64,000 nucleotides of DNA from Elusimicrobiota bacterium (GTDB lineage: Bacteria; Elusimicrobiota; Elusimicrobia; UBA1565), in NCBI GenBank assembly GCA_041660925.1, contig JBAZVI010000003.1, forward strand, positions 93,832-157,831. The letters are read 5' to 3'. The notes beneath the pieces are model-generated. The model was given only the letters and a program-made list of their open reading frames with translations. It ran no database searches and had not been told where the DNA came from. Positions 14,188 to 52,009 of this stretch are shown here, piece by piece (within the stretch, counting starts at the first letter, position 1; the number at the start of each line of letters is the position of its first letter). The position numbers and the translations under genes were made by a program.

Positions 14188-14310
14188 GCGAAGGGAATCG
14201 AACTATGAGGGCTCCGTCTTCCGCAAAGAAAGGCGCCTGTATGCCGCGCTACGCGGCTGCGCCCCGCGTCCATCCCTCGTCGTCGTGAATCGCTGTCAGC
14301 GGAATCCATC

Positions 14311-14423: not shown

Positions 14424-14465
14424 ATGAGGGTGTCCTTTTGTTGTGGAAAAGAACGATCGGCTGAA

Positions 14466-14536
14466 AGCGGGCGAAGGGAATCGAACCCTCGTCTAGAGCT
14501 TGGGAAGCTCCCGTTCTACCATTGAACCACGCCCGC
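14466..14536 (-). tRNA. tRNA-Gly (anticodon CCC)
   Basis: 71-nt cloverleaf folded by hand: acceptor GCGGGCG/CGCCCGC, D-stem GUUC/GAAC, anticodon stem GGAGC/GCUCU with loop UUCCCAA, T-stem GAGGG/CCCUU, T-loop UUCGAUU. No encoded CCA. Confidence 0.93.
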
Positions 14537-14632
14537 TTACAGCCGACCGGAAGAACGCCTCAAGTATAACAAACTCCCCGCAGCCCTTTCATCGGCAAAT
14601 CCATCGCCTGCAATAGCTCGTTTAGACGGACG

Positions 14633-14657
14633 AAAATCCGGACGTAGTCCGGATTTT
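14633..14657 (-). terminator. Rho-independent terminator of pgi (AAAATCCGGAC-gta-GTCCGGATTTT)
   Basis: Perfect 8-bp GC-rich stem flanked by A and T tracts; the T-tract overlaps the pgi stop codon. Confidence 0.8.
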
Positions 14658-20799: not shown

Positions 20800-21774
20800 T
20801 CAGAAGCGGTAGGTGAAAGCGAAGCGGTGGGCCTGGCCGAGCACGCCGTAGGGGGCCCAGGCGTAGTCGAAGCCCCCCCCGGCCAGGCGGGCGCCGAAGC
20901 CGAAGGAGAAGCCGGTGATGCCGTCGAGGTCCGACATCATCGTGCGGCCCGACCAGCCGGCGCGCACGAAGGCCGTGGCGTCGGTGAAGGGCCAGGAGGT
21001 CTCGCTGCCCACGTTCGCGTAAGGGCGGCCGTCGCTCGGACCGACGGCGTCCACGGCGAGCAGCCAGTTGCGCATGAGCCGCAGGGACTGGCCGAAGCGG
21101 AGCACGGTCGGCAGCTGCTCGGTCTTCTCGCGATAGCGCAGGCGCCCTCCGAAGTTGCTTCCCGAGAAGGCGGCGACGTAGGGCCACTGGTCGCCGAGCA
21201 GGGTGTGCCAGCGCAGGCCGGCGTCGGCGGCGCCCGAGCGCGCGGAGCGCGTGATCCGGGAGTCGATGAACTTGATCGCGATGCCGGCGTCGAGGTGTTC
21301 GCTCAGGGACGCTCCCCAGCCGGCCATGACCGCCAGGTCGTAGGGTTTGACCGACCCGCCGGTCGCGGTGCCCGAGTTGTCCATCTCCGGGATGTCTCCG
21401 GCGCTGAGGTAGAGCGCTCCGAGGGCGAGCGTCCCCAGCCCGCTGGGCCGGAACTCGCGCCGGCGCGGGGCGGCGGCGGGACTCAGCGGACAGGCGAAGA
21501 CGGCCAGGTCCGCGTAGAGGGACTGATAGAGGAAGGCGTGCGAGAGCAGGACCTCGCGCTTCTCGAGCGCGGCCAGTCCGGCCGGGTTCCAGTAGAGGGC
21601 CGAGGCGTCCTCCGCCGCCGCGCCGACGGCCTCTCCCATGCCCGCCGAGCGCGCGTCCGCGCCGAGCTTGAGGAACTGCCCCGTCGCCGTGCCCGCCGAG
21701 CTCGAATCGAAGGCGGCCCGCGCCTCCGGGACCGGGGCGAGCGCGAGGAGGACGGCGAGGAGGAGGACTCTCAT
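20800..21774 (-). CDS. outer-membrane beta-barrel protein of the PorV/UPF0164-like family (YWNPAGLA motif), paralog 1
   Basis: Signal peptide MRVLLLAVLLALAPVPEARA. Conserved YWNPAGLA motif. Ends ...FTYRF (aromatic C-terminus typical of OMPs). Lies directly downstream of the CTD-bearing giant protein. Confidence 0.6.
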   Translation of the reverse strand: MRVLLLAVLLALAPVPEARAAFDSSSAGTATGQFLKLGADARSAGMGEAVGAAAEDASALYWNPAGLAALEKREVLLSHAFLYQSLYADLAVFACPLSPAAAPRRREFRPSGLGTLALGALYLSAGDIPEMDNSGTATGGSVKPYDLAVMAGWGASLSEHLDAGIAIKFIDSRITRSARSGAADAGLRWHTLLGDQWPYVAAFSGSNFGGRLRYREKTEQLPTVLRFGQSLRLMRNWLLAVDAVGPSDGRPYANVGSETSWPFTDATAFVRAGWSGRTMMSDLDGITGFSFGFGARLAGGGFDYAWAPYGVLGQAHRFAFTYRF

Positions 21775-25524: not shown

Positions 25525-27075
25525 CTATGTTAACTTCTTAGAGACGTCTTTGGCGGGAGGGAGGCGGCGCAGGAACGCCAGCGCGTCCTCGCGCGTGCGC
25601 ACGCGTCCCTCGGCCTGGGCTTCCTCGAGCAGGGCGAGGGCTTCGCCGACCCGAGGACTCGGCGGGATGCCCAGTGTCTTCATGACCTCCTTGCCGTCGA
25701 GGAGACGCTCGGGCCGCGCGGTCGCGGGCGCGAGGAACCAGCGGCTCATCAGCCAGGAGACGAGCTGGAGGTGGCGCAGGGTCTTGGCGGTGTCGGCGTC
25801 GAGGGCGCGCGGCGGGCGGAAGCCGTGCGGGTCCTCCGCCGCCCAGCGCAGGACGCGGCGCAGGGCCGCGGGCGGGAGGTAGCTGGCGTGGTCGGCCCAG
25901 CAGAGCAGGAGCTGCGGCACCCCGAGCGGCCCGAGGTCGCGGAAGAAGCGGTAGACCGCCTTGTCGCTGACGACGTCCGCCGCGGCCAGGTTGCCGGGGC
26001 GCAGATGGTGCTCGGCGAGCAGGGCGGCGACGCGGACCTCTTCGCGCGAGCAGCGCAGGCGGCGCAGGATCTCGGCGGCCATCCGTCCGCCGAGCAGGTC
26101 GTGTCCGAAGAAGCGGAGGCGGCCGTCGATGCGGCGGGCGGTCGCGGGCTTGGCGACGTCGTGGAGCAGCGCGGCGAGCTTGAGGAAGGCCGGGTCCCCC
26201 GCGGGTGCGCCGAGCCCTCGGAGATGTTCGCGCACGCGCGCGCCGAGCGCGCCGAAGACGGCCTCGAGGTCGGAGAGGACGAAGTCCATGCGCGCGACCA
26301 CTTCGAGGGCGTGCTTGAGGACGCCGCCGGCCCCGTAGTAGACCTTCGCGCAGGTCCGGGAGGATTCGAGCTCGGGCAGCAGCGCCGTGAGGAGGCGGAC
26401 CTCGTCCATGGCCTTGAGCCAGGGAGCGCTGTCGGGGACCGCGAGCAGGGTCAGCAGCTCCGCGCGCGCGCGTTCGGACGCCGAGCGCCGCAGGAGCCCC
26501 CGCTCACGGCGGACGGCCGAGAGAGTCGCCGGCTCGACGCGGAGGCCGCACTGCGCCGCGATGCGGAAGACGCGGAGCATGCGCAGCGGGTCGTCGCGGA
26601 AGACCTTCGTCGTCGTCCGGCGCAGGCGCCGCCGTCGGAGGTCGGCGAGGCCGCCGTGCGGGTCGAGGAGCGGGGCTCCGGCCGCGAGCGGGAGCTCGAG
26701 CGCAAGGGCGTTGAGGGTGAAGTCGCGCCGCCCGAGGTCCGAGAGGATGTCCTTCCCTTGGAGTTCGGCGACGTCGACGTGGGGGCCTCCGCCCCGCGGG
26801 ACGACGCGGTAGACGCCGTTCTCGGCGTCCAGGACCACGCAGGAGGCTTTCGTCTGCCGCGCCAGGCGCTGCGCGAGGAGGTGCGCTCCGACGGCGGCCG
26901 CGTCGAGGTCGAGGACCGGGCGTCCGAGGAGGGCGTCGCGCAGTGCCCCTCCGACGAGCCAGACGCCTCTCGCCGGGGCGGCTGCGCGGGAGCACTCCTC
27001 GAGCGCGGCGAGCAGGGGGTGCGCGCGCAGGGCCTTCGCGGCCGTCGCGGGGAGACGCGTCGCGCGGGGCTTCAC
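25525..27075 (-). CDS. cca: CCA-adding tRNA nucleotidyltransferase / poly(A) polymerase-family enzyme with HD domain
   Basis: GGALRD..LG....DLD nucleotidyltransferase head. RDFTLNALA. HD motif (LLHDVAK). Probable GTG start at 27075 overlapping the fadD-like stop. Confidence 0.8.
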   Translation of the reverse strand: MKPRATRLPATAAKALRAHPLLAALEECSRAAAPARGVWLVGGALRDALLGRPVLDLDAAAVGAHLLAQRLARQTKASCVVLDAENGVYRVVPRGGGPHVDVAELQGKDILSDLGRRDFTLNALALELPLAAGAPLLDPHGGLADLRRRRLRRTTTKVFRDDPLRMLRVFRIAAQCGLRVEPATLSAVRRERGLLRRSASERARAELLTLLAVPDSAPWLKAMDEVRLLTALLPELESSRTCAKVYYGAGGVLKHALEVVARMDFVLSDLEAVFGALGARVREHLRGLGAPAGDPAFLKLAALLHDVAKPATARRIDGRLRFFGHDLLGGRMAAEILRRLRCSREEVRVAALLAEHHLRPGNLAAADVVSDKAVYRFFRDLGPLGVPQLLLCWADHASYLPPAALRRVLRWAAEDPHGFRPPRALDADTAKTLRHLQLVSWLMSRWFLAPATARPERLLDGKEVMKTLGIPPSPRVGEALALLEEAQAEGRVRTREDALAFLRRLPPAKDVSKKLT

Positions 27076-28706
27076 GAGACCCTCCGGTCGAGCTCGCGGC
27101 GCCGGAGCTCGCGCTTGAGGACCTTCTGCAGGGAGTTCTTCGGCATCTCGCCGAGAACCTCGATGTCGCGGGGACGCTTGTACGGGTCGAGGCGCTGGCG
27201 GCAGTGTTGGAGCAGGTCGGACTTCGTCGCCTTCGACCCCGGCCGGAGCACGACGAAGGCCTTGATCGTCTCGTCGCCCACGTCGTCGGGGATCCCCACG
27301 ACCGCGGCTTCCTGGACGCCGGGGTGCTCGAGGATCGCCGCCTCGACCTGGGCCGAGAAGACCTTCAGCCCCTTGATGATGATCATGTCTTTGATGCGGT
27401 CGCGGATGTGGAGGAAGCCGTCCGCGTCGACGATCCCCACGTCGCCGGTGCGCAGCCAGCCGTCCTCCGAGAGTACGGCGCGGGTGTCCTCCGGGCGGTT
27501 CAGATAGCCCTTCATGATGTTGTGGCCGCGGACGCAGATCTCCCCCTCTTCGCCCGGCGGGAGCTCGCAGCCCTGCCCGTCGACGATGCGGAGGCTCACC
27601 CCGTCGATGGGCGGGCCCGCGCTGCCGCGGCGGCTGCGGCCGGGCCGGTTGACGCTCACGATCGGGGAGGTCTCGGTGAGTCCGTAGCCCTCGAGGATCT
27701 CGTGGCCGACCGCGCGGAGGAAGTCCCGCGAGACGCGCTCGGGCAGCGGGGCCGCTCCGGCGACGCAGAAGCGGACCTTGCGGAACACGTACCAGCGCAG
27801 GACCCAGCGCTTGAGGCCGGTCGCCTGCTTGGCCAGCACCGCGTAGAGCTGCGGCACGGCGAAGAAGCAGGTCACCCCGTGGCGCGCCATGCGCATGAGC
27901 CAGGGCTTCGGCGGCGTGATCGAGGTGACGACGACGACCTTCGCTCCGATGCGCAGCGGGAGGACGATGCAGGCGGTCCAGGCGAAGGTGTGGAACATCG
28001 GGAGGAGGCACAGGAAGACGTCGTTCTCGCTGAGATCGAAGAACAGGATCGAGGAATCGGCGTTGGCGACCATGTTCGCGTGCGTGAGCATCACGCCCTT
28101 GGGCTCGCCGGTGGTCCCGGAGGTATAGAGCACCGCGGCGACGTCGTCGGGGGCGGCGGCGTCCTCGGCGTCCTCCCCCGCCCCGCACTTCGGACACTGG
28201 GGCGTACGCGCGTCGGCGAGGGCGGCCCAGAAGTCCCGCGTCCCTTCGCAGGGGCCTTCGGTCATCCAGACGGTCTCCAGGGCGGCCAGACCTACGCGCG
28301 CGGCGTTCACCTCGCGCAGGAAGGCGCGCTGGGTCACGATGGCGCGGGCGCCGCAGTCGGAGAGCATGTAGCGCAGCTCCGAGGACTTCTGCACCATGAA
28401 GTTGATGGGCACGGCCACGGCGCCCAGGCGCAGGAGGCCGAAGTACGCGACGACGAAGCCCAGTCCGTTGCGGTGGAGGATGGCGACCCGGTCGCCGCGG
28501 GCGATCCCGCTGGCGCGGAAGGCCTCCGCCGCGCGGAGCACGAGGCAGCGCAGCTCGTCGTAGGCGACCGCGTGCTCGGAGCCGGCGACGTCGCGTTTCC
28601 GGCAGCAGGGCGAGACGTGCTCGTGGGCCGGCCCCTCTTCGACGAGCAGCGCGATCCGCGCCGGCCAGCGCAGAGAGGCCTCGTCGAGCAGGGCGTTGAG
28701 CGTCAT
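27072..28706 (-). CDS. fadD: long-chain fatty-acid--CoA ligase (AMP-dependent synthetase)
   Basis: AMP-binding motif LYTSGTTGEPKGV. GYGLTETS, GDVG..D.DGF, KGLKVFSAQVE motifs. Start MTLNALL at 28706. Confidence 0.85.
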   Translation of the reverse strand: MTLNALLDEASLRWPARIALLVEEGPAHEHVSPCCRKRDVAGSEHAVAYDELRCLVLRAAEAFRASGIARGDRVAILHRNGLGFVVAYFGLLRLGAVAVPINFMVQKSSELRYMLSDCGARAIVTQRAFLREVNAARVGLAALETVWMTEGPCEGTRDFWAALADARTPQCPKCGAGEDAEDAAAPDDVAAVLYTSGTTGEPKGVMLTHANMVANADSSILFFDLSENDVFLCLLPMFHTFAWTACIVLPLRIGAKVVVVTSITPPKPWLMRMARHGVTCFFAVPQLYAVLAKQATGLKRWVLRWYVFRKVRFCVAGAAPLPERVSRDFLRAVGHEILEGYGLTETSPIVSVNRPGRSRRGSAGPPIDGVSLRIVDGQGCELPPGEEGEICVRGHNIMKGYLNRPEDTRAVLSEDGWLRTGDVGIVDADGFLHIRDRIKDMIIIKGLKVFSAQVEAAILEHPGVQEAAVVGIPDDVGDETIKAFVVLRPGSKATKSDLLQHCRQRLDPYKRPRDIEVLGEMPKNSLQKVLKRELRRRELDRRVS

Positions 28707-28777
28707 CGGCTCGGGAGGGTTCCTCTGCCGGGAACAGCTCGGGTCTAATCCGGCGGCGGTCACGTCGAGACCGCCGC

Positions 28778-29011
28778 CTAGATGACGGTCGTGACGAGGG
28801 TCTCGGTGGAGAGGACCCCGGGGATGGAGCGGATGTCGTTGACGACGATGCTCGAAAGGCTCGGCATGTCGTCGGTCTCCATGTCGAGAACGAGGTCCCA
28901 GCGCCCGAAGACGGCGGAGACGTGGGAGACCCCTTTGGTCTGCTTGATCTTCTGCAGGACCGATTGCTCGCGGCCGGCGGTCAGACGGACGAGGACGAGA
29001 CCTGTCACCAT
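28778..29011 (-). CDS. small Lrp/AsnC C-terminal (RAM) domain-only protein
   Basis: 77 aa. Beta-alpha-beta-beta-alpha-beta RAM-like pattern (VLVRL...VSHVSAVFGRWDLVL...TETLV). Confidence 0.65.
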   Translation of the reverse strand: MVTGLVLVRLTAGREQSVLQKIKQTKGVSHVSAVFGRWDLVLDMETDDMPSLSSIVVNDIRSIPGVLSTETLVTTVI

Positions 29012-29080
29012 GGGAGGAAACCTCGCTCGAAGAACGATGTCGTCGACGGGGAAAGTATACTAAAATCACGCCCGGCCCCC

Positions 29081-29527
29081 ATGCGCCTGGTCCTGCAGCG
29101 CGTCCTCGAGGCGTCCGTGGAGCTCCCCGGAGGGGAGCGCCGCGGCGTGGGCCCCGGCCTCCTGGTACTGGCCGGCGTCGGGCCGCGCGACGACGAGGCC
29201 TCCGCCGTCCGCATGGCCGAGAAGACGGCCAACCTGCGGATCTTCTCCGACGAGCGCGGGAAGTTCGACCGCTCCCTCCTCGACGTGCGCGGGGAGGCGC
29301 TCGTCATCAGCCAGTTCACCCTCTTCGGCGACTGCCGGCGCGGACGCCGTCCCGACTTCACCGGCGCCATGGAGCCCTTGCGCGCCGAGGCGCTCTATCG
29401 CGCCTACGCGGCCGCCCTCGCCGGACTCGGCGTCGCGGTGAAGACCGGCGAGTTCGGGGCGCACATGAAGGTCGCGCTCGTCAACGACGGACCCGTCACG
29501 ATATGGATCGATTCCGACCAGGCCTGA
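29081..29527 (+). CDS. dtd: D-aminoacyl-tRNA deacylase
   Basis: 148 aa. MRLVLQRV...SQFTLFGD...GPVT Dtd motifs. TATACT -10-like box about 25 nt upstream. Confidence 0.9.
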   Translation: MRLVLQRVLEASVELPGGERRGVGPGLLVLAGVGPRDDEASAVRMAEKTANLRIFSDERGKFDRSLLDVRGEALVISQFTLFGDCRRGRRPDFTGAMEPLRAEALYRAYAAALAGLGVAVKTGEFGAHMKVALVNDGPVTIWIDSDQA

Positions 29528-31056
29528 ACCTCCTCGGCCTGGTGCTCGCGGTCTACGCGGCTTTCTTCATCGGCTACCGCCTCTCCCGCTCCTGGGGCGC
29601 CGTCCGCCTGGACGCGGTGCGCCCCGCTTACCACCACGACGAGTTCGTCGAGCCCCGCCTGCGCACGCGCGACCCGGCGCTTCGCGCGCGCTGGCGCGCG
29701 CACGCGCCGCGCGTGCGCGTCCTCAAGGACGGCCGGCCCGTGACGACGGTCGGGGGGCTCCTCGAGCTTCCCCTGAGCTGGGACGCCTCGCGGGCCGCCT
29801 GGATCGGGCGCTGGCCCTGCCCTTGGAACGCCCCGGCCGGGCGCTACGCGCTCGAGCTCTCCGAGCCTCTCGAGGCGACCAAGGCGCTGCGCACCGGCGG
29901 CTTCGAGATCCTCCGCCGCGTCCCGCGCCCCATGCCCCGGCGGATGGCCGTCGCGACCTGGGAGAGCGCGCGGCCCCTGGCCTCCCTCAAGGTGAAGGCG
30001 CCCGACGGGACGCTCAAGGACTGGCGCGGCCTGCTCGATTGGGCGCAGTTCATGGGGGCGGACGCCTTCTGGATGCTCGGCGGTCAGACCCCCGGCCAGG
30101 GCCGGGGCGAGACCTGGGTCGCGCACAACCTCCCGCTCATCCCGGAGGTGGCGCGCGAGTGTCACCGGCGCGGGCTCAAGTTCGGCGTCTGGGCGATGTT
30201 CTCCCTGACGATGTCGTCCGAGAACCGCGTCCCCGGCTACGAGTACGCGCTCGAGATCGAGGACGGCCGCCCGAAGACGACCCGCGCGATCTCCATCCGT
30301 GACGAGCGGCGCGCGAAGGACGTGGCCCGGCTCCTGCGCGGCTTCGCCGCCATCCCCGAGGTGGATTTCGTCGGGCTCGACTACATCCGCAACGCGCTGG
30401 GCGGCTACGAGCTCGTCGACGACTTCATGGCCGAGATGCCCGAGGTCCCCCGCCCCGCGAACTGGGAGCGCATGAGCCGCGAGGAGCGCATGGCCGACTT
30501 CGCGAAGCGCAAGATCGCCCGCAAGGACATGCGGCTCGTCGACTCCTGGCAGTGGTGGCGGGCTCATCGCACCGCGCAGGCCATCCGCCTCATCCGGCGC
30601 GGCCTGCGCTCGGACAAGCCGCTGTGGGCCTTCACGCTCACCTGGGACCGCGGCCGGCATCACGGGCAGGACCCGGTGATGTTCACCGACGCGGGCGCGG
30701 ACGCCTGCGCTCTCATGATGTACGAGGCGGACCGGACGCAGTACGCTCAGATCCTCAAGGACTGGCACGCCTACGCGCGCGTCGGCGAGGTCCGCCTCAT
30801 CGTCGGGAACATCGTCGACTGGGGCCTGCATCAGCGCGCGAAGGACGGCCCCGGGGAGTTCCGACGGCGCCTGGACGCGGCCGTCGGCGGGATCTACGCC
30901 GACGGCGCCGCGGAGGGCCTGTTCGTCCACGACCTCGAGCGCGCGCTCAACGGACGGCTCGGCGCGTGGAGCACGCGCGACTGGCTCGATGCCGCCCGCG
31001 CGGCGGTCCTCCGGATGAAGGCGCTCCCCGCTTCCGGGGAGAAGGCGCGCGGATGA
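29503..31056 (+). CDS. membrane-anchored putative glycoside-hydrolase-like (TIM-barrel, GHL10/DUF4015-like) protein
   Basis: N-terminal TM helix. Large extracytoplasmic domain with conserved acidic/aromatic positions. Family assignment is tentative. Confidence 0.45.
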   Translation: MDRFRPGLNLLGLVLAVYAAFFIGYRLSRSWGAVRLDAVRPAYHHDEFVEPRLRTRDPALRARWRAHAPRVRVLKDGRPVTTVGGLLELPLSWDASRAAWIGRWPCPWNAPAGRYALELSEPLEATKALRTGGFEILRRVPRPMPRRMAVATWESARPLASLKVKAPDGTLKDWRGLLDWAQFMGADAFWMLGGQTPGQGRGETWVAHNLPLIPEVARECHRRGLKFGVWAMFSLTMSSENRVPGYEYALEIEDGRPKTTRAISIRDERRAKDVARLLRGFAAIPEVDFVGLDYIRNALGGYELVDDFMAEMPEVPRPANWERMSREERMADFAKRKIARKDMRLVDSWQWWRAHRTAQAIRLIRRGLRSDKPLWAFTLTWDRGRHHGQDPVMFTDAGADACALMMYEADRTQYAQILKDWHAYARVGEVRLIVGNIVDWGLHQRAKDGPGEFRRRLDAAVGGIYADGAAEGLFVHDLERALNGRLGAWSTRDWLDAARAAVLRMKALPASGEKARG

Positions 31057-35517: not shown

Positions 35518-36066
35518 TCAGGGGGAGCGGAGGAGGGCCTTGGCGCGCTCGACGCCGGAGGGACTCAGGCGGTAGCGCTTGCGCGCCTGCTTCGTCTTCC
35601 CCCCCTTGCGCAGCGAGACGACGAGGGCGCGCTCCATGAGGGAGGAGAGCGTCTTGGTCACGTTTGGGAGCCCTTCTCCGTGCCCCTTGAGGGCGCGGTT
35701 GACGGAGAAGGCGTCGAAGTCGGTCTCTCCCCGCACGACTTGATGCCAGAAGCCCGCCAGGAGGGCCCGCTCGGCGCTGCCCGATGTGCCCGCCGCCGCG
35801 AGGAGGGCTCCCGGGTCCGGGAAATCGAGGCTCTCTCTGCGGAGGTCCCCGCCGCGGGCGGCTCCTTCCAAGCGGGTCAGCCCGTGTGCTTCCGCCGCCC
35901 AGCGCAGGACCCGGCTCACGCCGTCCCGGTCGAGCTCCTTGAGCGCCTCCGTCACGGCGGCCAGGGCCCGGGCCTGCTCCGTCGGAGTCGTGTCCCGGCG
36001 CTTGCTCTCTTTGAGAGGGCTGCAAGCGCCGGGCCAGATGGGTCTTGTCTCCTTGGAATGAGTCAT
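35518..36066 (-). CDS. hypothetical protein, possibly winged-helix DNA-binding
   Basis: 182-aa ORF with balanced composition and an AT-rich upstream region. No firm domain match. Confidence 0.4.
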   Translation of the reverse strand: MTHSKETRPIWPGACSPLKESKRRDTTPTEQARALAAVTEALKELDRDGVSRVLRWAAEAHGLTRLEGAARGGDLRRESLDFPDPGALLAAAGTSGSAERALLAGFWHQVVRGETDFDAFSVNRALKGHGEGLPNVTKTLSSLMERALVVSLRKGGKTKQARKRYRLSPSGVERAKALLRSP

Positions 36067-36386: not shown

Positions 36387-36430
36387 AAACGAGAAGCCGC
36401 CCGCTTCGGAAAGCGGGCGGCTTCTCGTTT
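36387..36430. terminator. perfect 20-bp palindrome (AAACGAGAAGCCGCCCGCTT-cgga-AAGCGGGCGGCTTCTCGTTT); bidirectional terminator-like hairpin
   Basis: Exact inverted repeat flanked by A/T on both sides. Downstream of pccB and the conserved element on the minus strand. Confidence 0.6.
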
Positions 36431-36545: not shown

Positions 36546-38153
36546 TTAGAGCGGGATGTTCCCCCGGTTCGGGAGTTCTCCCGGCTTCCTTTTATCGGCC
36601 AGGAATTGGAAGGCGCGGATGACCGTGTAGCGGATCTGCGTCGGCTCGATGACTTCGTCGACCGACCCGGTCGAGGCCGTCTGGTAGGGCGCTGCGAAGC
36701 GCTCCTCGTACTCTTTGGAGAGCTTGAGGCGCAGCCCGTCCTTGTCCTCCGCCGCGGAGATGTCGCGCGAGTAGAGGATCTCGATGGCCCCGCGCGGGCC
36801 CATGACCGCGATCTCGGCGCAGGGCAGCGCGTAGTTGAAGTCGCCGCGCATGAGCTTGGAGCTCATCGCGATGTAGGCGCCGCCGTAGGCCTTGCGCAGG
36901 ACGACGGTCACCTTCGGCACCGTCGCTTCGGCGTAGGCGTGCAGCAGCTTCGCGCCGTGGCGGATGATGCCGGCGTGCTCCTGCTCGACGCCCGGCCAGT
37001 AGCCGGGGACGTCGACGAGGGTCAGGATGGGGATGTTGAAAGCGTTGAGGAAGCGGATGAAGCGCGCGGCCTTGTCGGAGGAGTCGATGTCGAGCGCGCC
37101 GGCCTTGTGGGCCGGGTTGTTCGCGATGACGCCGACGACCTCCCCCCCGAGGCGGATGAAGCCCACGACGATGTTCTTGGCGAACTCCGCGTGGATCTCG
37201 TAGAACTTGTGCTCGTCGGCGATCTGCCAGACGACGTGGTGCACGCGGTAGGGCTTGCGCGGGTCCACTTCGCAGAGGGCCTCGAGGACGGGCGTCGTGC
37301 GCCGGATGGGGTCCGGGCTGGGGACGTGCGGCGGCTTCTCGAAGCGGCTCTGCGGGAGGTAGCTGACGAGCTCCTTGATCTGGCGGAAGCAGTCCTGCTC
37401 GGAGGCGGCGACCACGTGGCAGACGCCGGACTTCGAGGAGTGCGGCTTCGAGCCGCCGAGGTCGTCGAAGGTCACGACCTCCCCGGTCGCCGCCTTCACG
37501 ACGTCGGGACCGGTCACGAACATGTGGCTGATGCCGTCGACCATGAACACGAAGTCCGTCAGGGCCGGGGAGTAGACGGCCCCGCCCGCGCACGGCCCGA
37601 GGATGACGGAGATCTGCGGGATGACGCCCGAGCACTTCACGTTCCGATAGAAGATCTCTCCGTAGCCGTCGAGCGAGTCCACGCCTTCCTGGATGCGCGC
37701 CCCGCCCGAGTCGAGCAGGCCGATGAGCGGCACGCGGTTCTCGTAGGCGAGGTCCATGACGCGGCAGATCTTCTTGGCCTGCTCGAGCCCGAGCGAGCCC
37801 CCGAGCACCGTGAAGTCCTGGGAGAAGACCGCGACCTCGCGGCCGTTGATGCGGCCGAAGCCGGTGATGGCGCCGTCGCCGGGGATGTCCTTCTCGCGCA
37901 GTCCGAAGTCGTTGCAGCGGGTCTTCACGAGGAGCCCGATCTCCTGGAAGCTCCCCTCGTCGAGGAGGTAGTGGATGCGCTCGCGGGCGGTGAGCTTGCC
38001 TTTCTTCTTCTGGGCTTCGATGCGCTTGGGGTCGCCGCCGGCGCGGGCCTTCTCGACGAGCTCGCGCATGCGTCCCACGTTCGTGGGGACCATGCGGTGC
38101 TTCTTCGGGGCCTTCTGGACCGGGGTCGGGGGAGTGCTCTCGGGGGCGTTCAT
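36546..38153 (-). CDS. pccB: acyl-CoA carboxylase carboxyltransferase beta subunit (propionyl-CoA carboxylase beta / methylmalonyl-CoA carboxyltransferase family)
   Basis: 535 aa. Characteristic GGAYIAMSS, VPGYWPG, and duplicated crotonase-fold CT domains. Confidence 0.9.
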   Translation of the reverse strand: MNAPESTPPTPVQKAPKKHRMVPTNVGRMRELVEKARAGGDPKRIEAQKKKGKLTARERIHYLLDEGSFQEIGLLVKTRCNDFGLREKDIPGDGAITGFGRINGREVAVFSQDFTVLGGSLGLEQAKKICRVMDLAYENRVPLIGLLDSGGARIQEGVDSLDGYGEIFYRNVKCSGVIPQISVILGPCAGGAVYSPALTDFVFMVDGISHMFVTGPDVVKAATGEVVTFDDLGGSKPHSSKSGVCHVVAASEQDCFRQIKELVSYLPQSRFEKPPHVPSPDPIRRTTPVLEALCEVDPRKPYRVHHVVWQIADEHKFYEIHAEFAKNIVVGFIRLGGEVVGVIANNPAHKAGALDIDSSDKAARFIRFLNAFNIPILTLVDVPGYWPGVEQEHAGIIRHGAKLLHAYAEATVPKVTVVLRKAYGGAYIAMSSKLMRGDFNYALPCAEIAVMGPRGAIEILYSRDISAAEDKDGLRLKLSKEYEERFAAPYQTASTGSVDEVIEPTQIRYTVIRAFQFLADKRKPGELPNRGNIPL

Positions 38154-38991
38154 GGTCGGCCTTCCGTGCTCGTGTAGGCGATGCTCAGGGTCTCCTCGCC
38201 GCGGAGGAGGGTCTCGAATCGGATCTCGGGGCTGCCGAGCGCTTCCCAGCGGGCCCGCGCGCGATTGTGCAATTCGAGCCGCAGGTCGTCGAGGCGCGGG
38301 CAGTTCTCCTTTCGCATCGCCCCGGACGCGCTCTGGGAAGCGGACGGGGGCTCCACTCGGCTCGCCCCTGCGGCGCCCCGCGAAGCGGGGGCAGGGTCCG
38401 ACGCAGGGGCCAGCTGCAGATCAGGAACGAAGCGCACGTCCCAGAGGTCCACCGAGAGGCCGAGGGTCAGGAGCTTGAGCACGGCCTCCTTCAGCGTCCA
38501 CAGGCGCGTCTGCGCCTGCGGGGTGTCGAGCGCGGGGCGCTCGCTGGGGTGCGCGAAGATGGTGAGGAACGACTGCGGGCGTTCGGCGACGCGCTCGACG
38601 TCCACGCCGACGCGGCCGTTGGCGGGAGCGGCCGCGGCGACGGCCCCGCCCGGTCCGTGGGAGATGGACAGGAACGGGGCGCCGGCTTCGGGGTCGCCGG
38701 GCAGCGCCGCGTAGGGCGAGCCGTCGCGGCGGTTGAGGATGGCCACCTCGCAGAGGCGGTCGGAGCGCCCCTTCTCGGCGAGAAGCGCGCAGACCAAGCG
38801 CTTGGCCGCGAGGCGGCCGGAGAGCCAGTCCTTGCGGCGCTTGGGCACCTTGAACGCCGCGAGCTGCGCGAGCTCCGCGGCGCCGAGCTGCTCCGAGAGG
38901 TCTTCTCCCCCCTCGTAGCGCTCGGCCCAGCGCGCGGCTTCCTCAGGGCTCAGGCGCAGGAGGCGGCAGGGTCCGACGCGTTCGGTGAGGC

Positions 38992-38995
<4 letters not shown>
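38150..38995 (-). CDS. Sfp/HetI/PfaE-type 4'-phosphopantetheinyl transferase
   Basis: DWLSGRLAAKRL, GVDVE and WTLKEAVLK motifs. Its ATG overlaps the megasynthase stop (ATGA). Confidence 0.85.
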
Positions 38996-47793
<8,798 letters not shown>

Positions 47794-48143
47794 GATTTGT
47801 CGGGTTTCCTGGTCCGGGGAGAGCGGACAATAGTGGACCGGCGGTTGGGGATGCTCGGCATCTTGAAAGATGGTAGCACAGAGCCCGATTCCATGTCAAC
47901 ATTTTTGAGTGCCAGACTTTAAATAGTGATAGCTATTCAAAAGACATGATATACCTATTGATATCGCCGCAACAGGAGAAGTGTGCCAGACTTTATGTAT
48001 TTAAAGATTTCCATTCCCTTTGAGTCTTCTGGCGGTCCGCGACCGTCCGACGCGCTTCATTCTCCTCCTCCGCCGTGTGTCGGCGAGAGTATATGGTACG
48101 CAGTATTGACAGGAGTCGAAAAATTGCTATAACTTCCCCCGAC
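47794..48143. promoter_or_regulatory. AT-rich divergent promoter region between the megasynthase operon and the 48144 gene; sigma70-like TTGACA-N16-TATAAC at 48106-48133; 13-nt direct repeats GTGCCAGACTTTA at 47909-47921 and 47983-47995; several TGATA motifs
   Basis: Local GC drop in a ~70% GC background. Motifs read directly from the sequence. Confidence 0.5.
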
Positions 48144-49247
48144 ATGAGCGCGCTTCTCACCGATGTATGGGCGTTGTCGTATGTCGCAGGCCTGCTTCTG
48201 GGCCTCGTCGCGTTCGTCTTCGTCTTCAAGCATTACCGCGCCGCCGCCGAGGACGAGGCGCCGCTCGACGAACCCCTCAGCACTCCGGCGCCGGAGAAAG
48301 CTTCGCCGAGCGAGCCGGTCCCCGTCGTCTCGCTGAAGGACGCTTTGCAGAAGCTCCCGGCCGTCGAGACGAAGGCCGCCCCTGCGCCGACGCCTCTGTC
48401 CGAGACGACGCTGGGAAAGATGGAGATCAAGAGCTCGACCGGCTCCGTGAGTCCCGCGGTCGTCTACCTGCAGAACCTCAAGACGCAGATGGAGCATTTC
48501 GAGAAGGAGATCCAGGCGCTCCAGGGCGAGCTCACCGGCTTCGTGCAGCGCCATGACAACCAGTTCGACGCGCTGCTTTCCCGCCTCGGGGACCTCCAGC
48601 AGGACCTTCATCAGCAGGTGAGCGCGCACGTCGACGCCGCGGCGATGCAGCCTGTTCCCGCCCCGACCTCTCGGCAGAGCTCGGGGCCGGTCCCGAGCGT
48701 CGTCGAGGGACCGAAGCCGCAGTCCGTTCCGAAGCCTGCTCCGAAGCCGGTCGCGAAGCCGCAGCCCGCGCCCGTCGTGAAGTCGGAGCTCCCTTCGGCG
48801 GGCCAGAGCGCCGAAGGTCCGTCGCGGAAGGAAGACGAACAGCGCGACGGACACGCCGCACCCCCGAGCGCGTCAGGGACGGCGCGAGAGGAGAAGGGCC
48901 AGCGCGCCGCCGCGCCGAAGCCGGAGCCCTCCGCACCCGTCGTGAAGGCGGAGCTCGCGCCGGCGCCCCAGGCGAACGCTCCGGTCCCGGCCGAGGAGAC
49001 TCTTCCCGGACGCCGCGGCGAGCCGGTGCGCATCCCGCTCCCGGCGGGCGCCAAGTCCGTGCCGGTGGAATCGATACCCCTCCCCGCGCAAGAGAAGAAA
49101 GCCGAGGAGACGGAAGCTCCCAGGCCCGCGCCGGCTCCGACCGAGCCTTCCCCCGTTCCCGCCGACTTGCGCGCCGACGAGACTCTGGTCCTCAAGCCGA
49201 GCGGCGAGATGGAGCCGAAGAAGCGAGGCCCGGTCTGGCCCGTCTAG
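48144..49247 (+). CDS. membrane-anchored coiled-coil and Pro/Ala-rich protein (hypothetical)
   Basis: N-terminal TM helix, coiled-coil segment, long PAPK-rich region containing an in-frame copy of the palindromic repeat. Probably leaderless: ATG sits about 10 nt after the -10 box. Confidence 0.6.
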   Translation: MSALLTDVWALSYVAGLLLGLVAFVFVFKHYRAAAEDEAPLDEPLSTPAPEKASPSEPVPVVSLKDALQKLPAVETKAAPAPTPLSETTLGKMEIKSSTGSVSPAVVYLQNLKTQMEHFEKEIQALQGELTGFVQRHDNQFDALLSRLGDLQQDLHQQVSAHVDAAAMQPVPAPTSRQSSGPVPSVVEGPKPQSVPKPAPKPVAKPQPAPVVKSELPSAGQSAEGPSRKEDEQRDGHAAPPSASGTAREEKGQRAAAPKPEPSAPVVKAELAPAPQANAPVPAEETLPGRRGEPVRIPLPAGAKSVPVESIPLPAQEKKAEETEAPRPAPAPTEPSPVPADLRADETLVLKPSGEMEPKKRGPVWPV

Positions 49248-50203
49248 CTCGTATTCTCCCCCTCGTCGCGCTGTTCTTCGCCGCCCCCGCGCGGGCGAAG
49301 CTTTTCCCCGACGGCCCCTTCTCCGGGAAAGCGGCGGGCACGACGGGCGCGGCGTTCCTTCGGCTGCCGGCGGGGGCGCGCGCGCTGGCTCTCGGCGGCT
49401 CGGGGGTCGCCGCGGTCCGCGATTCCGAATCCATGTTCTGGAACCCGGCCGGGCTCGCCGTGCTCGAGGAGCACGGACTCTCCGACGTCAGCGCGGCCTA
49501 CAACATGCTGCTCGAGACGTCCTACGCGGGCTCAATCGCCTACGGGCGCCCCCTGGGGGGAGGACGCGGCGCCCTCGGAGCCTCCCTGGTCTACTTCTCC
49601 CAGTCGGCCCTGCAGGGCTACGACGCGAAGGGCGATCCGACCTCCTCCTTCACGCCGAGCGACCTCGCGTTCGGGCTGGGCTACGGCCGCGTCGTCGGGC
49701 CGGTGAGGGCGGGCGCGGGGCTCAAGTTCATCCGCTCCGAGCTCGCCGGCGCGAGCGGGACCACCTTCGCCGTGGACCTCGGCGTCCAGGCCGAGCGCGT
49801 CACCGAGATGGGGGAGGGGCCGCTCGACGTCGGGGCCTCGCTCGTCAACCTCGGCCCGCCGCTCAAGCTCGGCGGCGCCTCCGATCCCCTCCCCTTCAAG
49901 GTCCAGCTGGGGACGCTGTGGCACATCAACCCGCGCCTCAACGGCATGCTCGACGGGCACCTGCCCGTCGACGACGACCCGTACGCCAGCTTCGGTCTCG
50001 AATTCCGCCAGGTTTTCGCGGAGGACTTCCGCGCGTCCCTGCGCGGGGGCTACAACGTCCGCAACGAGCGCGGCGTCGACGGCCTTGCGGGGATGTCGGC
50101 CGGGTTCGGAGTGGAACTGCTGCGCGGCCGCATCGACTACGCCTGGGTCCCTTTCGGGGACCTGGGGATGACGCACCGCATCACCCTCGGATTCAAGTTC
50201 TGA
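49235..50203 (+). CDS. PorV/UPF0164-like outer-membrane beta-barrel protein, paralog 2
   Basis: MFWNPAGLA motif and alignment to the 20800-21774 paralog. The signal peptide LARILPLVALFFAAPARA lies upstream of the first ATG with no in-frame ATG/GTG/TTG, so the start is uncertain. Ends ...LGFKF. Confidence 0.55.
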   Translation: MARLARILPLVALFFAAPARAKLFPDGPFSGKAAGTTGAAFLRLPAGARALALGGSGVAAVRDSESMFWNPAGLAVLEEHGLSDVSAAYNMLLETSYAGSIAYGRPLGGGRGALGASLVYFSQSALQGYDAKGDPTSSFTPSDLAFGLGYGRVVGPVRAGAGLKFIRSELAGASGTTFAVDLGVQAERVTEMGEGPLDVGASLVNLGPPLKLGGASDPLPFKVQLGTLWHINPRLNGMLDGHLPVDDDPYASFGLEFRQVFAEDFRASLRGGYNVRNERGVDGLAGMSAGFGVELLRGRIDYAWVPFGDLGMTHRITLGFKF

Positions 50204-50449: not shown

Positions 50450-52009
50450 TCATAGAAGAGGCCGCATCACGCGCAGCATCTGCGCGTGGATGCGGCCGTT
50501 GCTGGCGAGGGTCTGCCGGCCGAAGGACTCCGGTTCGTTCCAGGGGAGACCGTCGAAGGCGGTGACCTTCCCCCCGGCCTCCTGCACGAGCAGCGCGCCG
50601 GCCGCCACGTCCCAGGGGTTCAGGGAGAACTCCCAGTAGCCGTCCACCCTTCCCGCCGCCGTCCAGGCGAGGTCGAGCGCGGCCGATCCCGAGCGGCGCA
50701 CGTCGTGGCAGCGCTTCATGAACGCGCTGTAGAACCGCAGGAGATAGTCGGCGCGCCGGGCCCGGTCGTAGGCGAAGCCGGTGAGCAGGAGAGAGTCCTC
50801 GACGCGCCCCGCGGCGCTCACGCGCAGCGGGCGTCCGTTGAGCGTCGCCCCGCGGCCGAGCTCGGCGAAGAAGAGCTCCCCGCGGCTCGGGTCGTAGACC
50901 CCTCCCATGAACGGGCGGCCCCGGCGGAGGAGTCCGATGGAGACGCAGAAGGCGGGGAAGCCGTGGGCGTAGTTCGTGGTGCCGTCGAGCGGGTCGATGA
51001 CCCAGGTGAAATCGGACGCGGTCGTGCGCGGGGCGCGCTCCTCGGTCAGGAAGGAGTGGTCCGGGAAGCGGGCGAGCACGATGTCGAGGACGCGCTGCTC
51101 GCTCGCGTGGTCGGCCTCGGTGACGAGGTTCGCGCGGCCCTTGTAGCGGATGTGCACCTTCCCGAAGCGCGCGCGCAGGACGGCGCCCCCCGCACGAAGC
51201 GCCTCATGGAGCGTGCGGCGCAGGAGCGCACGGGGGACGGCTTCCCGGCGGGCGACGGCGCCGGCGAGTTCCTCGGCGCCTCGCCGCCCGGCCTCGGCCG
51301 CGGGCTCGATTCCGCGCCGGCGCAGGGCGGCCGACGTCGTCGGGCCGATGGAGGCCGCGCGCGCGGCGGCGAGGAAGCCCCGAGCGGCCGGCGCGCCCAG
51401 CGCGGAGAAGAAGGCCTCGACCGCCGAGGGCGAGGCGAAAACGGTCCAATCGGGGGTCTCCCCGCGCCGCGTCAGCGCGCGCAGGGCCCGGAGTCCTTCC
51501 GGGTCCGGGACCGTGCGGTAGGCCGGGGCGACGACGAGCCGGGCGCCGGCCCGGCGCAGCGCGCGCGGAAGCTCTTCTCGTCCCTCGAGCGCCCGCGGCA
51601 GGAGGATCCTCGCGCCGCGGACCTTCCCCATCCGGCGGGCGAGCGCACGCGCCTCATGCCTCTCGGGGACGGCGGCGGCGTTCCAACCCCGCTCCCGGAG
51701 GGCGGCGGCGGTGGCCGGGCCCACGGCGTAGAGGCGCCGGGGCGGCCGGGGCCGCAGGCCGAGGGTGCGGGCGCGGCCGAAGAAGGCCGAGACGGCGCTG
51801 GCGCTCGCGAAGACGACGGCGTCGAAGTCCGGGAGCTCCCGCAGGGCTCGGTCGAGCGCGGACCAGCTCGGCGGCGGGACGGTCCGGATCAGCGGCGCGT
51901 GCACGACTCGCGCGCCTTTGCGCGCGAGCGCGCGCGTGAGTCCTTCGGCGCGGGCCTTCGGGCGGGTCAAGAGGACGGTCTTTCCCCTGAGAGGGAGCAT
52001 CCCTCCCAT
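50450..52009 (-). CDS. single ORF fusing uroporphyrinogen-III synthase (HemD, N-terminal ~250 aa) to inositol monophosphatase-family protein (SuhB-like, C-terminal ~260 aa)
   Basis: HemD duplicated halves (AVVFASASAV / WTVFASPSAV). IMPase motifs VTEADHASE, WVIDPLDGTTNY, WDVAAGALLV. No stop between them. Confidence 0.75.
   Translation of the reverse strand: MGGMLPLRGKTVLLTRPKARAEGLTRALARKGARVVHAPLIRTVPPPSWSALDRALRELPDFDAVVFASASAVSAFFGRARTLGLRPRPPRRLYAVGPATAAALRERGWNAAAVPERHEARALARRMGKVRGARILLPRALEGREELPRALRRAGARLVVAPAYRTVPDPEGLRALRALTRRGETPDWTVFASPSAVEAFFSALGAPAARGFLAAARAASIGPTTSAALRRRGIEPAAEAGRRGAEELAGAVARREAVPRALLRRTLHEALRAGGAVLRARFGKVHIRYKGRANLVTEADHASEQRVLDIVLARFPDHSFLTEERAPRTTASDFTWVIDPLDGTTNYAHGFPAFCVSIGLLRRGRPFMGGVYDPSRGELFFAELGRGATLNGRPLRVSAAGRVEDSLLLTGFAYDRARRADYLLRFYSAFMKRCHDVRRSGSAALDLAWTAAGRVDGYWEFSLNPWDVAAGALLVQEAGGKVTAFDGLPWNEPESFGRQTLASNGRIHAQMLRVMRPLL

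What the first reader, a model, noticed from the sequence alone, without database searches (positions are those of the whole stretch)
36546..47793. Megasynthase operon with non-canonical PfaA-like architecture (KS-AT-KS'-4xACP-KR-DH) plus coupled PPTase and carboxyltransferase
The 2933-aa protein resembles PUFA-synthase PfaA but carries an extra full KS-like domain between the AT and the ACP array. This second KS has a Cys in NAACASTT and both His motifs, plus a ~110-aa insertion. No ER, thioesterase or PfaC/PfaD-like partner genes are in the window. The product would be an unsaturated or polyene-type chain. The Sfp-type PPTase start overlaps the synthase stop (ATGA), and an acyl-CoA carboxyltransferase beta subunit follows, which suggests dedicated extender-unit supply. 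Such pfa-like 'secondary lipid' clusters are largely uncharacterised outside Proteobacteria.
Basis: partly seen in the sequence, partly recalled or inferred. Interest (0 to 1): 0.85.

Follow-up and report, generated by a model that had tools for sequence, protein, structure and literature searches.

The report
Type R lipid synthase with threonine carriers
This is a real three-gene operon for a giant fatty-acid/polyketide-type synthase of a class catalogued in 2011 and found in hundreds of species, but its product is still unknown and all its carrier domains carry threonine where every known carrier has the essential serine.

Summary
ORF 38992-47793(-) encodes a 2933-aa KS-AT-KS'-4xACP-KR-DH synthase. 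It is joined by ATGA overlaps to an Sfp-type PPTase and then to a PccB-type carboxyltransferase. No ER, TE, PfaC or PfaD lies in the 64 kb.

The architecture is not new. It is the 'Type R secondary lipid synthase' of Shulse & Allen 2011 (KS-MAT-'CLF'-ACP3-6-KR plus PPTase), reported in Elusimicrobium, Acidobacteria and Roseiflexus. The window comes from an Elusimicrobiota MAG. At least 578 species genomes encode the KS' domain, and all 80 loci fetched show the same domain order. No paper I could search names a product.

Three points go beyond the 2011 description:
- The 'CLF' is a catalytically intact, very divergent FabF-like KS. Cys, His, Lys and His are each at least 95% conserved.
- A carboxylase is a conserved partner across phyla. 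Outside Elusimicrobia and Thermoplasmatota, an acyl-CoA dehydrogenase, and in Acidobacteria also ETF, lies directly upstream of the synthase.
- Every ACP carries Thr at the canonical phosphopantetheinyl-Ser position (4/4 here, 216/216 in the 80 loci), and a dedicated PPTase is adjacent or fused wherever enough DNA is held.

Verdict: a new member of a known but uncharacterised family. Interest is moderate and rests mainly on the Thr carriers.

The parts
47870..47899 (-). sigma-70-like promoter (TTGACA-18-TACCAT with a TG extension), about 77 nt upstream of the synthase ATG
   Evidence: This is a consensus match only: 3 sites were found in the region against 0.4 expected.
38992..47793 (-). 2933-aa iterative type I synthase with domains KS1-AT-KS'-ACPx4-KR-DH (Type R PfaA homologue). 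It is identical to NCBI MFA6029319.1 from an Elusimicrobiota MAG.
   Evidence: Codon-position GC is 0.68/0.48/0.94.
46375..47772 (-). KS1 (aa 8-473), a PfaA/PKS-type ketosynthase with Cys213, His350 and His387-type motifs
45004..45984 (-). AT (aa 604-930) with GHSLGE and HAFH, the motifs of a malonyl-specific acyltransferase
   Evidence: Of the related loci, 75/75 have GHSLGE and 70/75 have HAFH.
43189..44796 (-). KS' (aa about 1000-1535), a divergent FabF-like ketosynthase with intact Cys1256, His1404, Lys1440 and His1445. It has an extra helical hairpin and an extra beta-hairpin.
41614..42966 (-). Four tandem ACP domains (aa about 1612-2062). Each carries DLGIDTV, with Thr at the canonical phosphopantetheinyl-Ser position. 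The Thr codons are at 42853-42855, 42445-42447, 42061-42063 and 41743-41745.
40099..40773 (-). KR (aa 2341-2565) with YATAN. A structural sub-domain of about 125 aa precedes it.
38995..39801 (-). PKS-type double-hotdog DH (aa 2665-2933) with the HxxxGxxxxP motif (HSISGVPYIP)
38150..38995 (-). 281-aa Sfp-type phosphopantetheinyl transferase. Its start overlaps the synthase stop as ATGA.
   Evidence: Codon-position GC is 0.75/0.55/0.90.
36546..38153 (-). Acyl-CoA carboxylase carboxyltransferase (beta) subunit of the PccB/MmdA type. Its ATG 38153 overlaps the PPTase stop as ATGA. An alternative start is ATG 38093.
36397..36416 (-). Terminator-like hairpin about 130 nt after the carboxyltransferase stop; probable end of the operon
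   Evidence: consensus match only

Best explanation
This is a three-gene operon (promoter, synthase, PPTase, carboxyltransferase, terminator) encoding a 'Type R' secondary-lipid synthase. Type R is an iterative type I FAS/PKS related to the PfaA subunit of PUFA synthases.

Shown by the sequence and by comparison:
- All catalytic motifs of KS1, AT, KS', KR and DH are intact.
- KS' is a genuine ketosynthase, not a chain-length factor.
- The four ACPs carry Thr at the prosthetic-group position.
- The PPTase and a carboxylase are conserved partners of this synthase.

Inferred working model:
1. The carboxyltransferase, together with biotin carboxylase and BCCP encoded elsewhere, makes malonyl-CoA.
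2. The AT loads malonyl units onto the tandem ACPs.
3. The ACPs are activated only by the co-translated PPTase, most likely by O-phosphopantetheinylation of the Thr.
4. KS1 and KS' divide the elongation cycles between them, for example short versus long chains, as KS-A and KS-C do in PUFA synthases.
5. KR and DH turn each beta-keto group into an enoyl group.
6. The enoyl groups are reduced in trans. Other phyla have an adjacent acyl-CoA dehydrogenase with or without ETF for this. In Elusimicrobia the reductase is unidentified.
7. The product is a long-chain, mostly saturated or partly unsaturated acyl chain that an unlinked acyltransferase passes into a lipid.

The chemical product is unknown.
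For: Family and architecture:
- Pfam and NCBIfam domain calls.
- The same KS1-AT-KS'-ACP(2-6)-KR-DH order in every one of the 80 related loci that holds enough DNA.
- It matches the published Type R description, including a downstream PPTase and occurrence in Elusimicrobia.

KS' is active:
- Cys, His, Lys, His and the GFGSQ motif are each at least 95% conserved in 105 sequences.
- It has a FabF-like fold.

Operon:
- Two ATGA overlaps, a promoter-like site and a terminator-like hairpin.

Malonyl supply:
- The AT has HAFH.
- The carboxyltransferase is closest to short-chain PccB-type enzymes: 606 bits, against 390 for AccD4 and 164 for long-chain ACC.
- A carboxylase is linked in several phyla. 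Chloroflexi have CT followed by a biotin carboxylase gene. Acidobacteria and Acidimicrobiia have a fused BC-BCCP-CT protein. Thermoplasmatota have CT upstream.

Thr as the attachment site:
- HMMER aligns the Thr with the Ser of solved ACPs.
- All 216 ACPs in the 80 loci have Thr, encoded by all four Thr codons.
- Among long representatives, 39 of 40 KS'-containing synthases have Thr. The one exception has Ser, which is also a hydroxyl residue. All 21 PfaA-like proteins without KS' have Ser.
- The PPTase keeps the Sfp catalytic motifs. It is adjacent in 30 loci, fused in 2 and just beyond the carboxylase gene in 8.

Trans enoyl reduction:
- An ACAD that is 59-76% identical across phyla lies directly upstream, on the same strand, in about 37 loci outside Elusimicrobia and Thermoplasmatota.
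- Acidobacteria add EtfAB and an FeS/CCG oxidoreductase.
Against: - No product is known for any member of the family.
- This window and all 32 Elusimicrobia-type loci lack the ACAD, ETF and biotin carboxylase within their flanks. A trans ER is therefore assumed here, not shown. Without it the product would be a polyene.
- No TE or acyltransferase for release is present.
- Phosphopantetheinylation of Thr has no precedent that I could find. E. coli AcpP S36T is used as an inactive ACP (PMC9456370).
- The division of labour between KS1 and KS' is by analogy only.
Confidence: 0.6

Rival explanations
1. Polyene synthase. With KR and DH but no ER, the enzyme iteratively builds a conjugated polyene or polyenoic chain, as the enediyne PKSE does. 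This would be a pigment or specialised metabolite rather than a membrane acyl chain.
For: - No ER domain in the protein and no ER, ACAD or PfaD gene in 64 kb or in any Elusimicrobia locus.
- The domain order KS-AT-(ACP)-KR-DH(-PPTase) resembles PKSE (my own knowledge).
- The PPTase is fused to the C-terminus in Thermoplasmatota and in many representative proteins.
Against: - In most other phyla a highly conserved ACAD, with or without ETF, is co-oriented directly upstream of the orthologous synthase. This suggests that enoyl/acyl redox chemistry is part of the ancestral pathway.
- There is no PKSE-type thioesterase or enediyne cassette.
- Multiple tandem ACPs and a linked ACC are typical of high-flux lipid synthases.
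Confidence: 0.22
2. Primary fatty-acid synthase. In Elusimicrobia and some other lineages this megasynthase plus its carboxylase is the main fatty-acid synthase of the cell, replacing or backing up type II FAS.
For: - It is present in 30 species-level genomes labelled Elusimicrobia among the top 80 loci alone.
- It is embedded among housekeeping genes with the same GC and codon bias.
- It is always linked to a carboxylase.
Against: - There is no ER.
- Shulse & Allen describe these clusters as coexisting with type II FAS (PMC3098273). The JACS Au 2026 paper says the same of secondary lipid synthases in general.
- I could not inspect whole genomes for fab genes.
Confidence: 0.1
3. The second KS is an inactive chain-length factor, as labelled in 2011, and only shapes the chain length of KS1 products.
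For: - Shulse & Allen call this domain 'CLF'.
- Its Pfam KS scores are weak (52 and 26 bits).
Against: - The defining CLF feature, loss of the active-site Cys, is absent. Cys, both His and Lys are at least 95% conserved in 105 sequences from many phyla, and the signature motifs are present in 64-78 of 80 loci.
- The fold is a complete FabF-like KS.
Confidence: 0.03
4. The Thr-ACPs are not phosphopantetheinylated at Thr. Either the carriers are decoys or scaffolds, or they are modified elsewhere or differently.
For: - I found no precedent for Thr as the acceptor.
- E. coli AcpP S36T behaves as inactive.
Against: - No Ser-type ACP occurs anywhere in these synthases, yet all condensing and processing domains are intact.
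- A PPTase with intact catalytic motifs is adjacent, fused or two genes away wherever enough flank is held.
- The only alternative residue seen at this site in the family is Ser (P0202).
Confidence: 0.15

Closest known systems
Type R secondary lipid synthase cluster (Shulse & Allen 2011, PLoS One 6:e20146; PMC3098273)
   Same: - One pfaA homologue with KS-MAT-second KS-like domain-ACP(3-6)-KR, followed by a PPTase gene.
- Found in Elusimicrobia, Acidobacteria and Chloroflexi.
- An ACC gene was noted inside the Koribacter cluster.
- The product is uncharacterised.
   Different: - The 2011 description calls the second domain a CLF. Here it is a catalytically intact KS.
- The 2011 description lists neither the C-terminal DH nor the Thr-type ACPs.
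- It treats the carboxylase as a Koribacter peculiarity, whereas the carboxylase is a family-wide partner.
PfaA of PUFA synthases (PfaABCDE; TIGR02813)
   Same: - KS-AT-tandem ACP-KR-DH order.
- KS1 is most similar to the PfaA model (419 bits for KS1 alone).
- Iterative lipid-type logic and a dedicated Sfp-type PPTase.
   Different: - The whole-protein score is just below the family cut-off (977.7 versus 1010.1).
- There is an extra KS between the AT and the ACPs.
- There are no PfaB, PfaC or PfaD partners, and so no FabA-type DH/isomerases and no ER.
- The ACPs carry Thr, whereas PfaA-like representatives carry DLGIDSIKRVEI with Ser.
Enediyne polyketide synthase PKSE (KS-AT-ACP-KR-DH-PPTase); own knowledge
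   Same: - Iterative KS-AT-ACP-KR-DH without an ER.
- The PPTase is fused to the C-terminus in the Thermoplasmatota members and in many other family representatives.
   Different: - PKSE has one ACP and no second KS.
- PKSE needs a hotdog thioesterase and the enediyne cassette, none of which is present here.
FabF (KAS II) of type II FAS
   Same: - It is the best sequence and structure match of KS' (129 bits to TIGR03150; Foldseek TM 0.85).
- It has the same Cys-His-His-Lys constellation.
   Different: - Only about 20% identity, far below the FabF cut-off of 494 bits.
- KS' is about 110-140 aa longer.
- KS' has family-specific motifs (SHETYTPARGGSA, NTKGFTGH, PFDRRRHG).
- KS' is embedded in a megasynthase.
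Pks13 / AccD4 mycolic condensation system
   Same: A condensing enzyme is genetically linked to an acyl-CoA carboxylase beta subunit.
   Different: - The carboxyltransferase here is of the PccB/short-chain type: 606 bits, against 390 for the AccD4 chain.
- The AT is malonyl-type.
- There is no FadD32-like ligase in the operon.
- I considered this analogy and rejected it.

Membership tests
Type R secondary lipid synthase (Shulse & Allen 2011) | A single pfaA homologue with KS-MAT-(KS-like 'CLF')-ACP(3-6)-KR | tested here: met
   The architecture is KS-AT-KS'-4xACP-KR(-DH) in one 2933-aa ORF.
Type R secondary lipid synthase (Shulse & Allen 2011) | A PPTase gene directly downstream | tested here: met
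   A 281-aa protein with ACPS and 4PPT_N domains, joined by an ATGA overlap.
Type R secondary lipid synthase (Shulse & Allen 2011) | Orthology with the published members (Elusimicrobium minutum, Roseiflexus, Acidobacteria) | tested here: met
   KS' relatives with the same domain order occur in an E. minutum MAG (L021), a Roseiflexus MAG (L054) and many Acidobacteriota.
Canonical PUFA synthase (PfaABCDE) | PfaA reaches the TIGR02813 cut-off | tested here: not met
   977.7 bits against a cut-off of 1010.1.
Canonical PUFA synthase (PfaABCDE) | Partner genes PfaB (AT), PfaC (KS-CLF-DH/I x2) and PfaD (ER) | tested here: not met
   None in the 64 kb and none in the flanks of related loci.
Chain-length factor (CLF) | Loss of the active-site Cys (usually Gln) in a KS-like fold | tested here: not met
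   Cys1256 is present. Cys, His, Lys and His are at least 95% conserved.
Enediyne PKSE | A single ACP, a fused PPTase and the associated TE/enediyne cassette | tested here: not met
   There are four ACPs, an extra KS, a separate PPTase and no TE.
Canonical acyl carrier protein (PF00550; Ser-phosphopantetheine) | Ser at the start of helix II (D-S-L/I motif) as the attachment site | tested here: not met
   All four domains match PF00550 but have DLGIDTV. The Thr aligns with the Ser of solved ACPs.
Canonical acyl carrier protein (PF00550; Ser-phosphopantetheine) | The domain is actually phosphopantetheinylated | not testable with these tools
   This needs mass spectrometry of the ACP co-expressed with the PPTase.
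Acyl-CoA carboxylase beta subunit (PccB/AccD5 type) | Full-length Carboxyl_trans domain with close similarity to solved PCC beta subunits | tested here: met
   PF01039 at 595 bits. 606 bits to 3n6r_B over residues 21-535.
Acyl-CoA carboxylase beta subunit (PccB/AccD5 type) | Partner biotin carboxylase/BCCP subunit | tested here: not met
   No BC or BCCP in the window. One is present next to the carboxyltransferase in Chloroflexi loci and is fused to it in Acidobacteria.

The most novel reading that the evidence does not exclude
Type R synthases use O-phosphopantetheinyl-threonine carrier domains that only their own linked or fused PPTase can activate. That would make the carrier and PPTase an orthogonal pair. 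Together with the second active KS, a dedicated carboxylase and, in most phyla, a flavin (ACAD/ETF)-based enoyl reductase, they would form a self-contained, previously unrecognised kind of fatty-acid synthase. It would be spread across Elusimicrobia, Acidobacteria, Chloroflexi, Actinomycetota and even Thermoplasmatota archaea.
Probability: 0.4. Interest if true: 0.75.

Novelty: new member of a known kind. Interest (0 to 1): 0.5.

Why it matters
- The family sits in hundreds of genomes of abundant but poorly cultured phyla from soil, groundwater, gut and hot springs, and nobody knows what lipid it makes. Its product could be an unassigned environmental biomarker lipid.
- If the Thr carriers are modified, this would be the first natural Thr-linked phosphopantetheine that I am aware of. 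It would explain why the PPTase never leaves the synthase.
- It would also give a naturally orthogonal ACP/PPTase pair for engineering.
- Annotation rules that demand Ser at this position would wrongly score these ACPs as dead.

Tried and rejected
Literature:
None found a product or a biochemical study of Type R.
- None found a report of Thr-phosphopantetheinylation or of the DLGIDTV motif.
- One search was too broad and returned only noise.
- Herlemann 2009, the E. minutum genome paper, is not held.

Hypotheses considered and rejected:
- KS' as a recent duplicate of KS1. BLASTP between the two gives only E of about 0.01.
- KS' as a CLF. The catalytic residues are conserved.
- The carboxyltransferase as an AccD4-like long-chain enzyme feeding a Pks13-like head-to-head condensation by KS'. 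It is clearly PccB-type.

Genes considered as possible cluster members and rejected:
- orf182 (35518-36066) and the PBP4 gene. They have no homologues next to the synthase in any related locus and lie beyond the terminator-like hairpin.
- orf390 (48075-49247). It is divergently transcribed and conserved only in the closest Elusimicrobia.
- The AMP-binding gene at 27072-29069. It is not conserved near the cluster.

Checks without a useful result:
- The PPTase has no PDB sequence match and no NCBIfam match.
- tRNA and Rfam scans found only one tRNA-Gly.

Not done:
- I could not test whether the source genome has type II FAS, an ER or the ACAD elsewhere.
Full report
**1.

The window is about 70% GC. 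It comes from an Elusimicrobiota MAG contig of 354,779 bp. The 2933-aa protein and the PPTase are identical to NCBI MFA6029319.1 and MFA6029318.1.

ORF 38992..47793(-) has the following domains (Pfam; motifs):
- KS, aa 8-416.
- AT, aa 604-930.
- A second KS at about aa 1000-1535. It gives weak PF00109 and PF02801 hits plus an ACP_syn_III hit.
- Four PP-binding domains.
- KR, aa 2341-2565.
- A PKS-type DH, aa 2665-2933.

The catalytic motifs are intact: DAACAAS, EAHGTST and KSQIGH in KS1; GHSLGE and HAFH in the AT; YATAN in the KR; HSISGVPYIP in the DH.

The NCBIfam PfaA model scores 977.7 bits, just below its cut-off of 1010.1.

The synthase stop and the PPTase start overlap as ATGA. So do the PPTase stop and the carboxyltransferase start. 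A sigma-70-like promoter lies at 47899-47870, and a terminator-like hairpin lies at 36416-36397. This delimits a three-gene operon.

Pfam scans of 48 other predicted ORFs of the window, including all longer than about 130 aa, found only housekeeping or unannotated genes. There is no ER, TE, PfaB/C/D, ACAD or biotin carboxylase (tblastn).

**2. The second KS is a real, very divergent ketosynthase**

- HMMER aligns KS' with FabF so that Cys1256, His1404, Lys1440 and His1445 fall on the FabF Cys, His, Lys and His.
- Its best curated family is FabF, at 129 bits against a cut-off of 494. It has no family of its own.
- It is barely alignable with KS1 (BLASTP E of about 0.01), so it is not a recent duplicate.
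- An AlphaFold model built on 27 homologues has pLDDT 88 and pTM 0.89. It is a complete thiolase fold, nearest to FabF (TM-target 0.85, about 20% identity).
- The extra length is a poorly conserved helical hairpin (domain residues 170-228), a conserved beta-hairpin (132-150), and N- and C-terminal additions.
- In 105 full-length sequences from many phyla, several motifs are at least 95% conserved: the Cys and both His, Lys, PFDRRR, SHETYTPARGGSA, NTKGFTGH and AGFGSQ.
- It is therefore not a chain-length factor in the accepted sense.

**3. The carrier domains are the real oddity**

- All four ACPs read DLGIDTV. HMMER alignments to solved ACPs put the Thr exactly on the phosphopantetheinylated Ser of DLGADSL, DLGVDSI and DLGIDSV.
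- In the 80 related loci, all 216 ACP domains have LG[IV]DTV, and none has Ser. All four Thr codons are used: ACC 122, ACG 74, ACT 12, ACA 8. Ser is one nucleotide away, so Thr is being selected.
- I searched 1.84 billion representative proteins with one ACP and inspected the best 150.
  - Among proteins longer than 2000 aa, 39 of 40 KS'-containing synthases have only Thr-type ACPs.
  - The single exception, P0202, has DLGIDSV with Ser.
  - All 21 PfaA-like proteins without KS' have the classical DLGIDSIKRVEI.
- The only residue that ever replaces Thr is thus the other hydroxyl residue. This argues that Thr is the attachment point.
- The PPTase keeps the Sfp-type motifs G.P, S.SH, G.D.E and W..KE...K, but has no NCBIfam or PDB sequence match.
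- The PPTase is adjacent in 30 loci, fused to the synthase C-terminus in 2 Thermoplasmatota loci and in many representative proteins, and lies just beyond the carboxylase gene in 8 Acidobacteria loci.
- In E. coli, AcpP S36T is used as an inactive ACP (PMC9456370).
- I found no paper that reports a Thr-linked phosphopantetheine or this motif. Shulse & Allen do not mention it.

**4. Comparative genomics**

The KS' domain has 837 relatives with E <= 1e-5 among the 8,000 candidate proteins scored in the clustered protein database.

The best 80 loci span Elusimicrobia, Acidobacteriota, Chloroflexota, Acidimicrobiia, Myxococcota and other 'delta' lineages, a Spirochaetia MAG, and five Thermoplasmatota archaeal MAGs.

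Every locus with enough DNA shows KS1-AT-KS'-ACP(2-6)-KR-DH.

A carboxylase is a conserved partner:
- Elusimicrobia and Chloroflexi have a PccB-type carboxyltransferase after the PPTase. In Chloroflexi a biotin carboxylase gene follows it.
- Thermoplasmatota have the carboxyltransferase directly upstream.
- Acidobacteria and Acidimicrobiia have a fused BC-BCCP-ACC_central-CT protein of about 1880 aa directly downstream.

The window's carboxyltransferase is closest to short-chain PCC/ACC beta subunits. It scores 606 bits, against 390 for an AccD4 chain, 352 for AccD6 and 164 for long-chain ACC.

Outside Elusimicrobia and Thermoplasmatota, a long (about 550-600 aa) acyl-CoA dehydrogenase that is 59-76% identical across phyla lies directly upstream on the same strand. 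Acidobacteria add a WS/DGAT, an FeS/CCG oxidoreductase, EtfB and EtfA.

The Elusimicrobia loci, including this window, lack these genes within their flanks.

**5. What is already known**

Shulse & Allen 2011 (PMC3098273) defined 'Type R' as follows:
- One pfaA homologue with KS-MAT-CLF-ACP(3-6)-KR, followed by a PPTase gene.
- Found in Koribacter, Solibacter, Elusimicrobium minutum and Roseiflexus.
- Product uncharacterised.
- An ACC gene inside the Koribacter cluster.

A 2026 survey still lists only heterocyst glycolipids, phenolic lipids, zeamines and megapolipeptins as known secondary-lipid products (PMC13291983).

**6. Most likely mechanism, and what is inference**

Shown:
- A coupled operon.
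- Intact catalytic motifs.
- An active-type second KS.
- Thr carriers.
- Conserved PPTase and carboxylase partnership.

Inferred:
1. The carboxyltransferase, with BC and BCCP encoded elsewhere, supplies malonyl-CoA.
2. The AT loads the ACPs, which only the cognate PPTase can activate, at the Thr.
3. KS1 and KS' share the elongation cycles.
4. KR and DH give enoyl intermediates.
5. Enoyl reduction is done in trans. The ACAD with or without ETF would do this in other phyla. The agent is unknown here.
6. Release needs an unlinked acyltransferase.

Rivals:
- A polyene product, because no ER is linked in Elusimicrobia.
- A role as the primary FAS.
- The ACPs are not modified at Thr.
- The CLF reading is contradicted by the sequence.

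**7. Verdict**

- The locus is real and correctly described.
- It is a new member of a known, widespread and still uncharacterised family. It is not a new architecture.
- The residual interest lies in three family-wide features that the 2011 description did not record: Thr at the prosthetic-group site of every ACP together with an inseparable PPTase, an active second KS, and dedicated carboxylase and flavin-dehydrogenase partners. All are directly testable.

Noticed in passing
window 41743-42855 (Thr codons at 42853-42855, 42445-42447, 42061-42063, 41743-41745); also L001-L080: All four ACPs have Thr (DLGIDTV) at the canonical phosphopantetheinyl-Ser position. The same holds for all 216 ACPs in the 80 related loci. 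PfaA-like proteins without KS' keep Ser.
   Followed up: yes
L033:794-10096, L038:6728-16171, also L036, L065, L080: Thermoplasmatota archaeal MAGs carry the same synthase. In L033 and L038 the PPTase is fused to its C-terminus and a biotin carboxylase gene lies downstream. The carboxyltransferase lies directly upstream in L033, L036, L038 and L065. I did not check whether these contigs are truly archaeal.
   Followed up: partly
L042:76-6901, L058:1292-21635 and about 15 other Acidobacteriota loci: An extended conserved cluster: WS/DGAT, FeS/CCG oxidoreductase, EtfB, EtfA, ACAD, synthase, fused BC-BCCP-CT carboxylase (about 1880 aa, eukaryote-like ACC_central domain), PPTase. This suggests a flavin-based enoyl reduction and a wax-ester or TAG-type off-loading.
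   Followed up: partly
P0202 (3234 aa): This is the only KS'-containing synthase seen with Ser-type ACPs (DLGIDSVKVAE). Its PPTase is fused. It offers a natural Ser/Thr comparison for experiments.
   Followed up: partly
L079:6007-14814; also P0150, P0163, P0179, P0193, P0204, P0227, P0257: Domain-shuffled variants have one or more Thr-ACPs placed before KS1 or between KS1 and the AT (for example KS1-ACP-ACP-AT-KS'-ACP-KR-DH).
   Followed up: no
window 50450-52009 (-): A single 519-aa ORF fuses uroporphyrinogen-III synthase (HemD, aa 24-248) with an inositol-monophosphatase-family domain (aa 266-494). Homologous sequence lies near the synthase in several related Elusimicrobia loci (L002, L003, L013, L018, L020, L030).
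   Followed up: no
window 49433-50203 (+) and 20800-21885 (-): Two paralogous outer-membrane-type proteins. tblastn of the cluster-9 protein gives 57% and 33% identity to these two sites. The second one has a weak PorV hit. The first is syntenic with the synthase in close Elusimicrobia relatives.
   Followed up: no
window 756-3608 (-), 29503-31056 (+), 48075-49247 (+): Large ORFs with strong coding GC3 (950, 517 and 390 aa) have no Pfam family. The 390-aa ORF is divergently transcribed from the synthase promoter region and is conserved in L001, L003, L005 and L009.
   Followed up: no
L024 (CAVKWQ010000003.1, labelled Muribaculaceae): The locus is collinear with the Avelusimicrobium locus L020, with domain coordinates within about 12 bp. 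The Bacteroidota label is probably a binning error.
   Followed up: no
window 14465-14537 (-): tRNA-Gly(CCC) is the only RNA gene detected in the window. The region 11486-14657 around it has few convincing ORFs.
   Followed up: no
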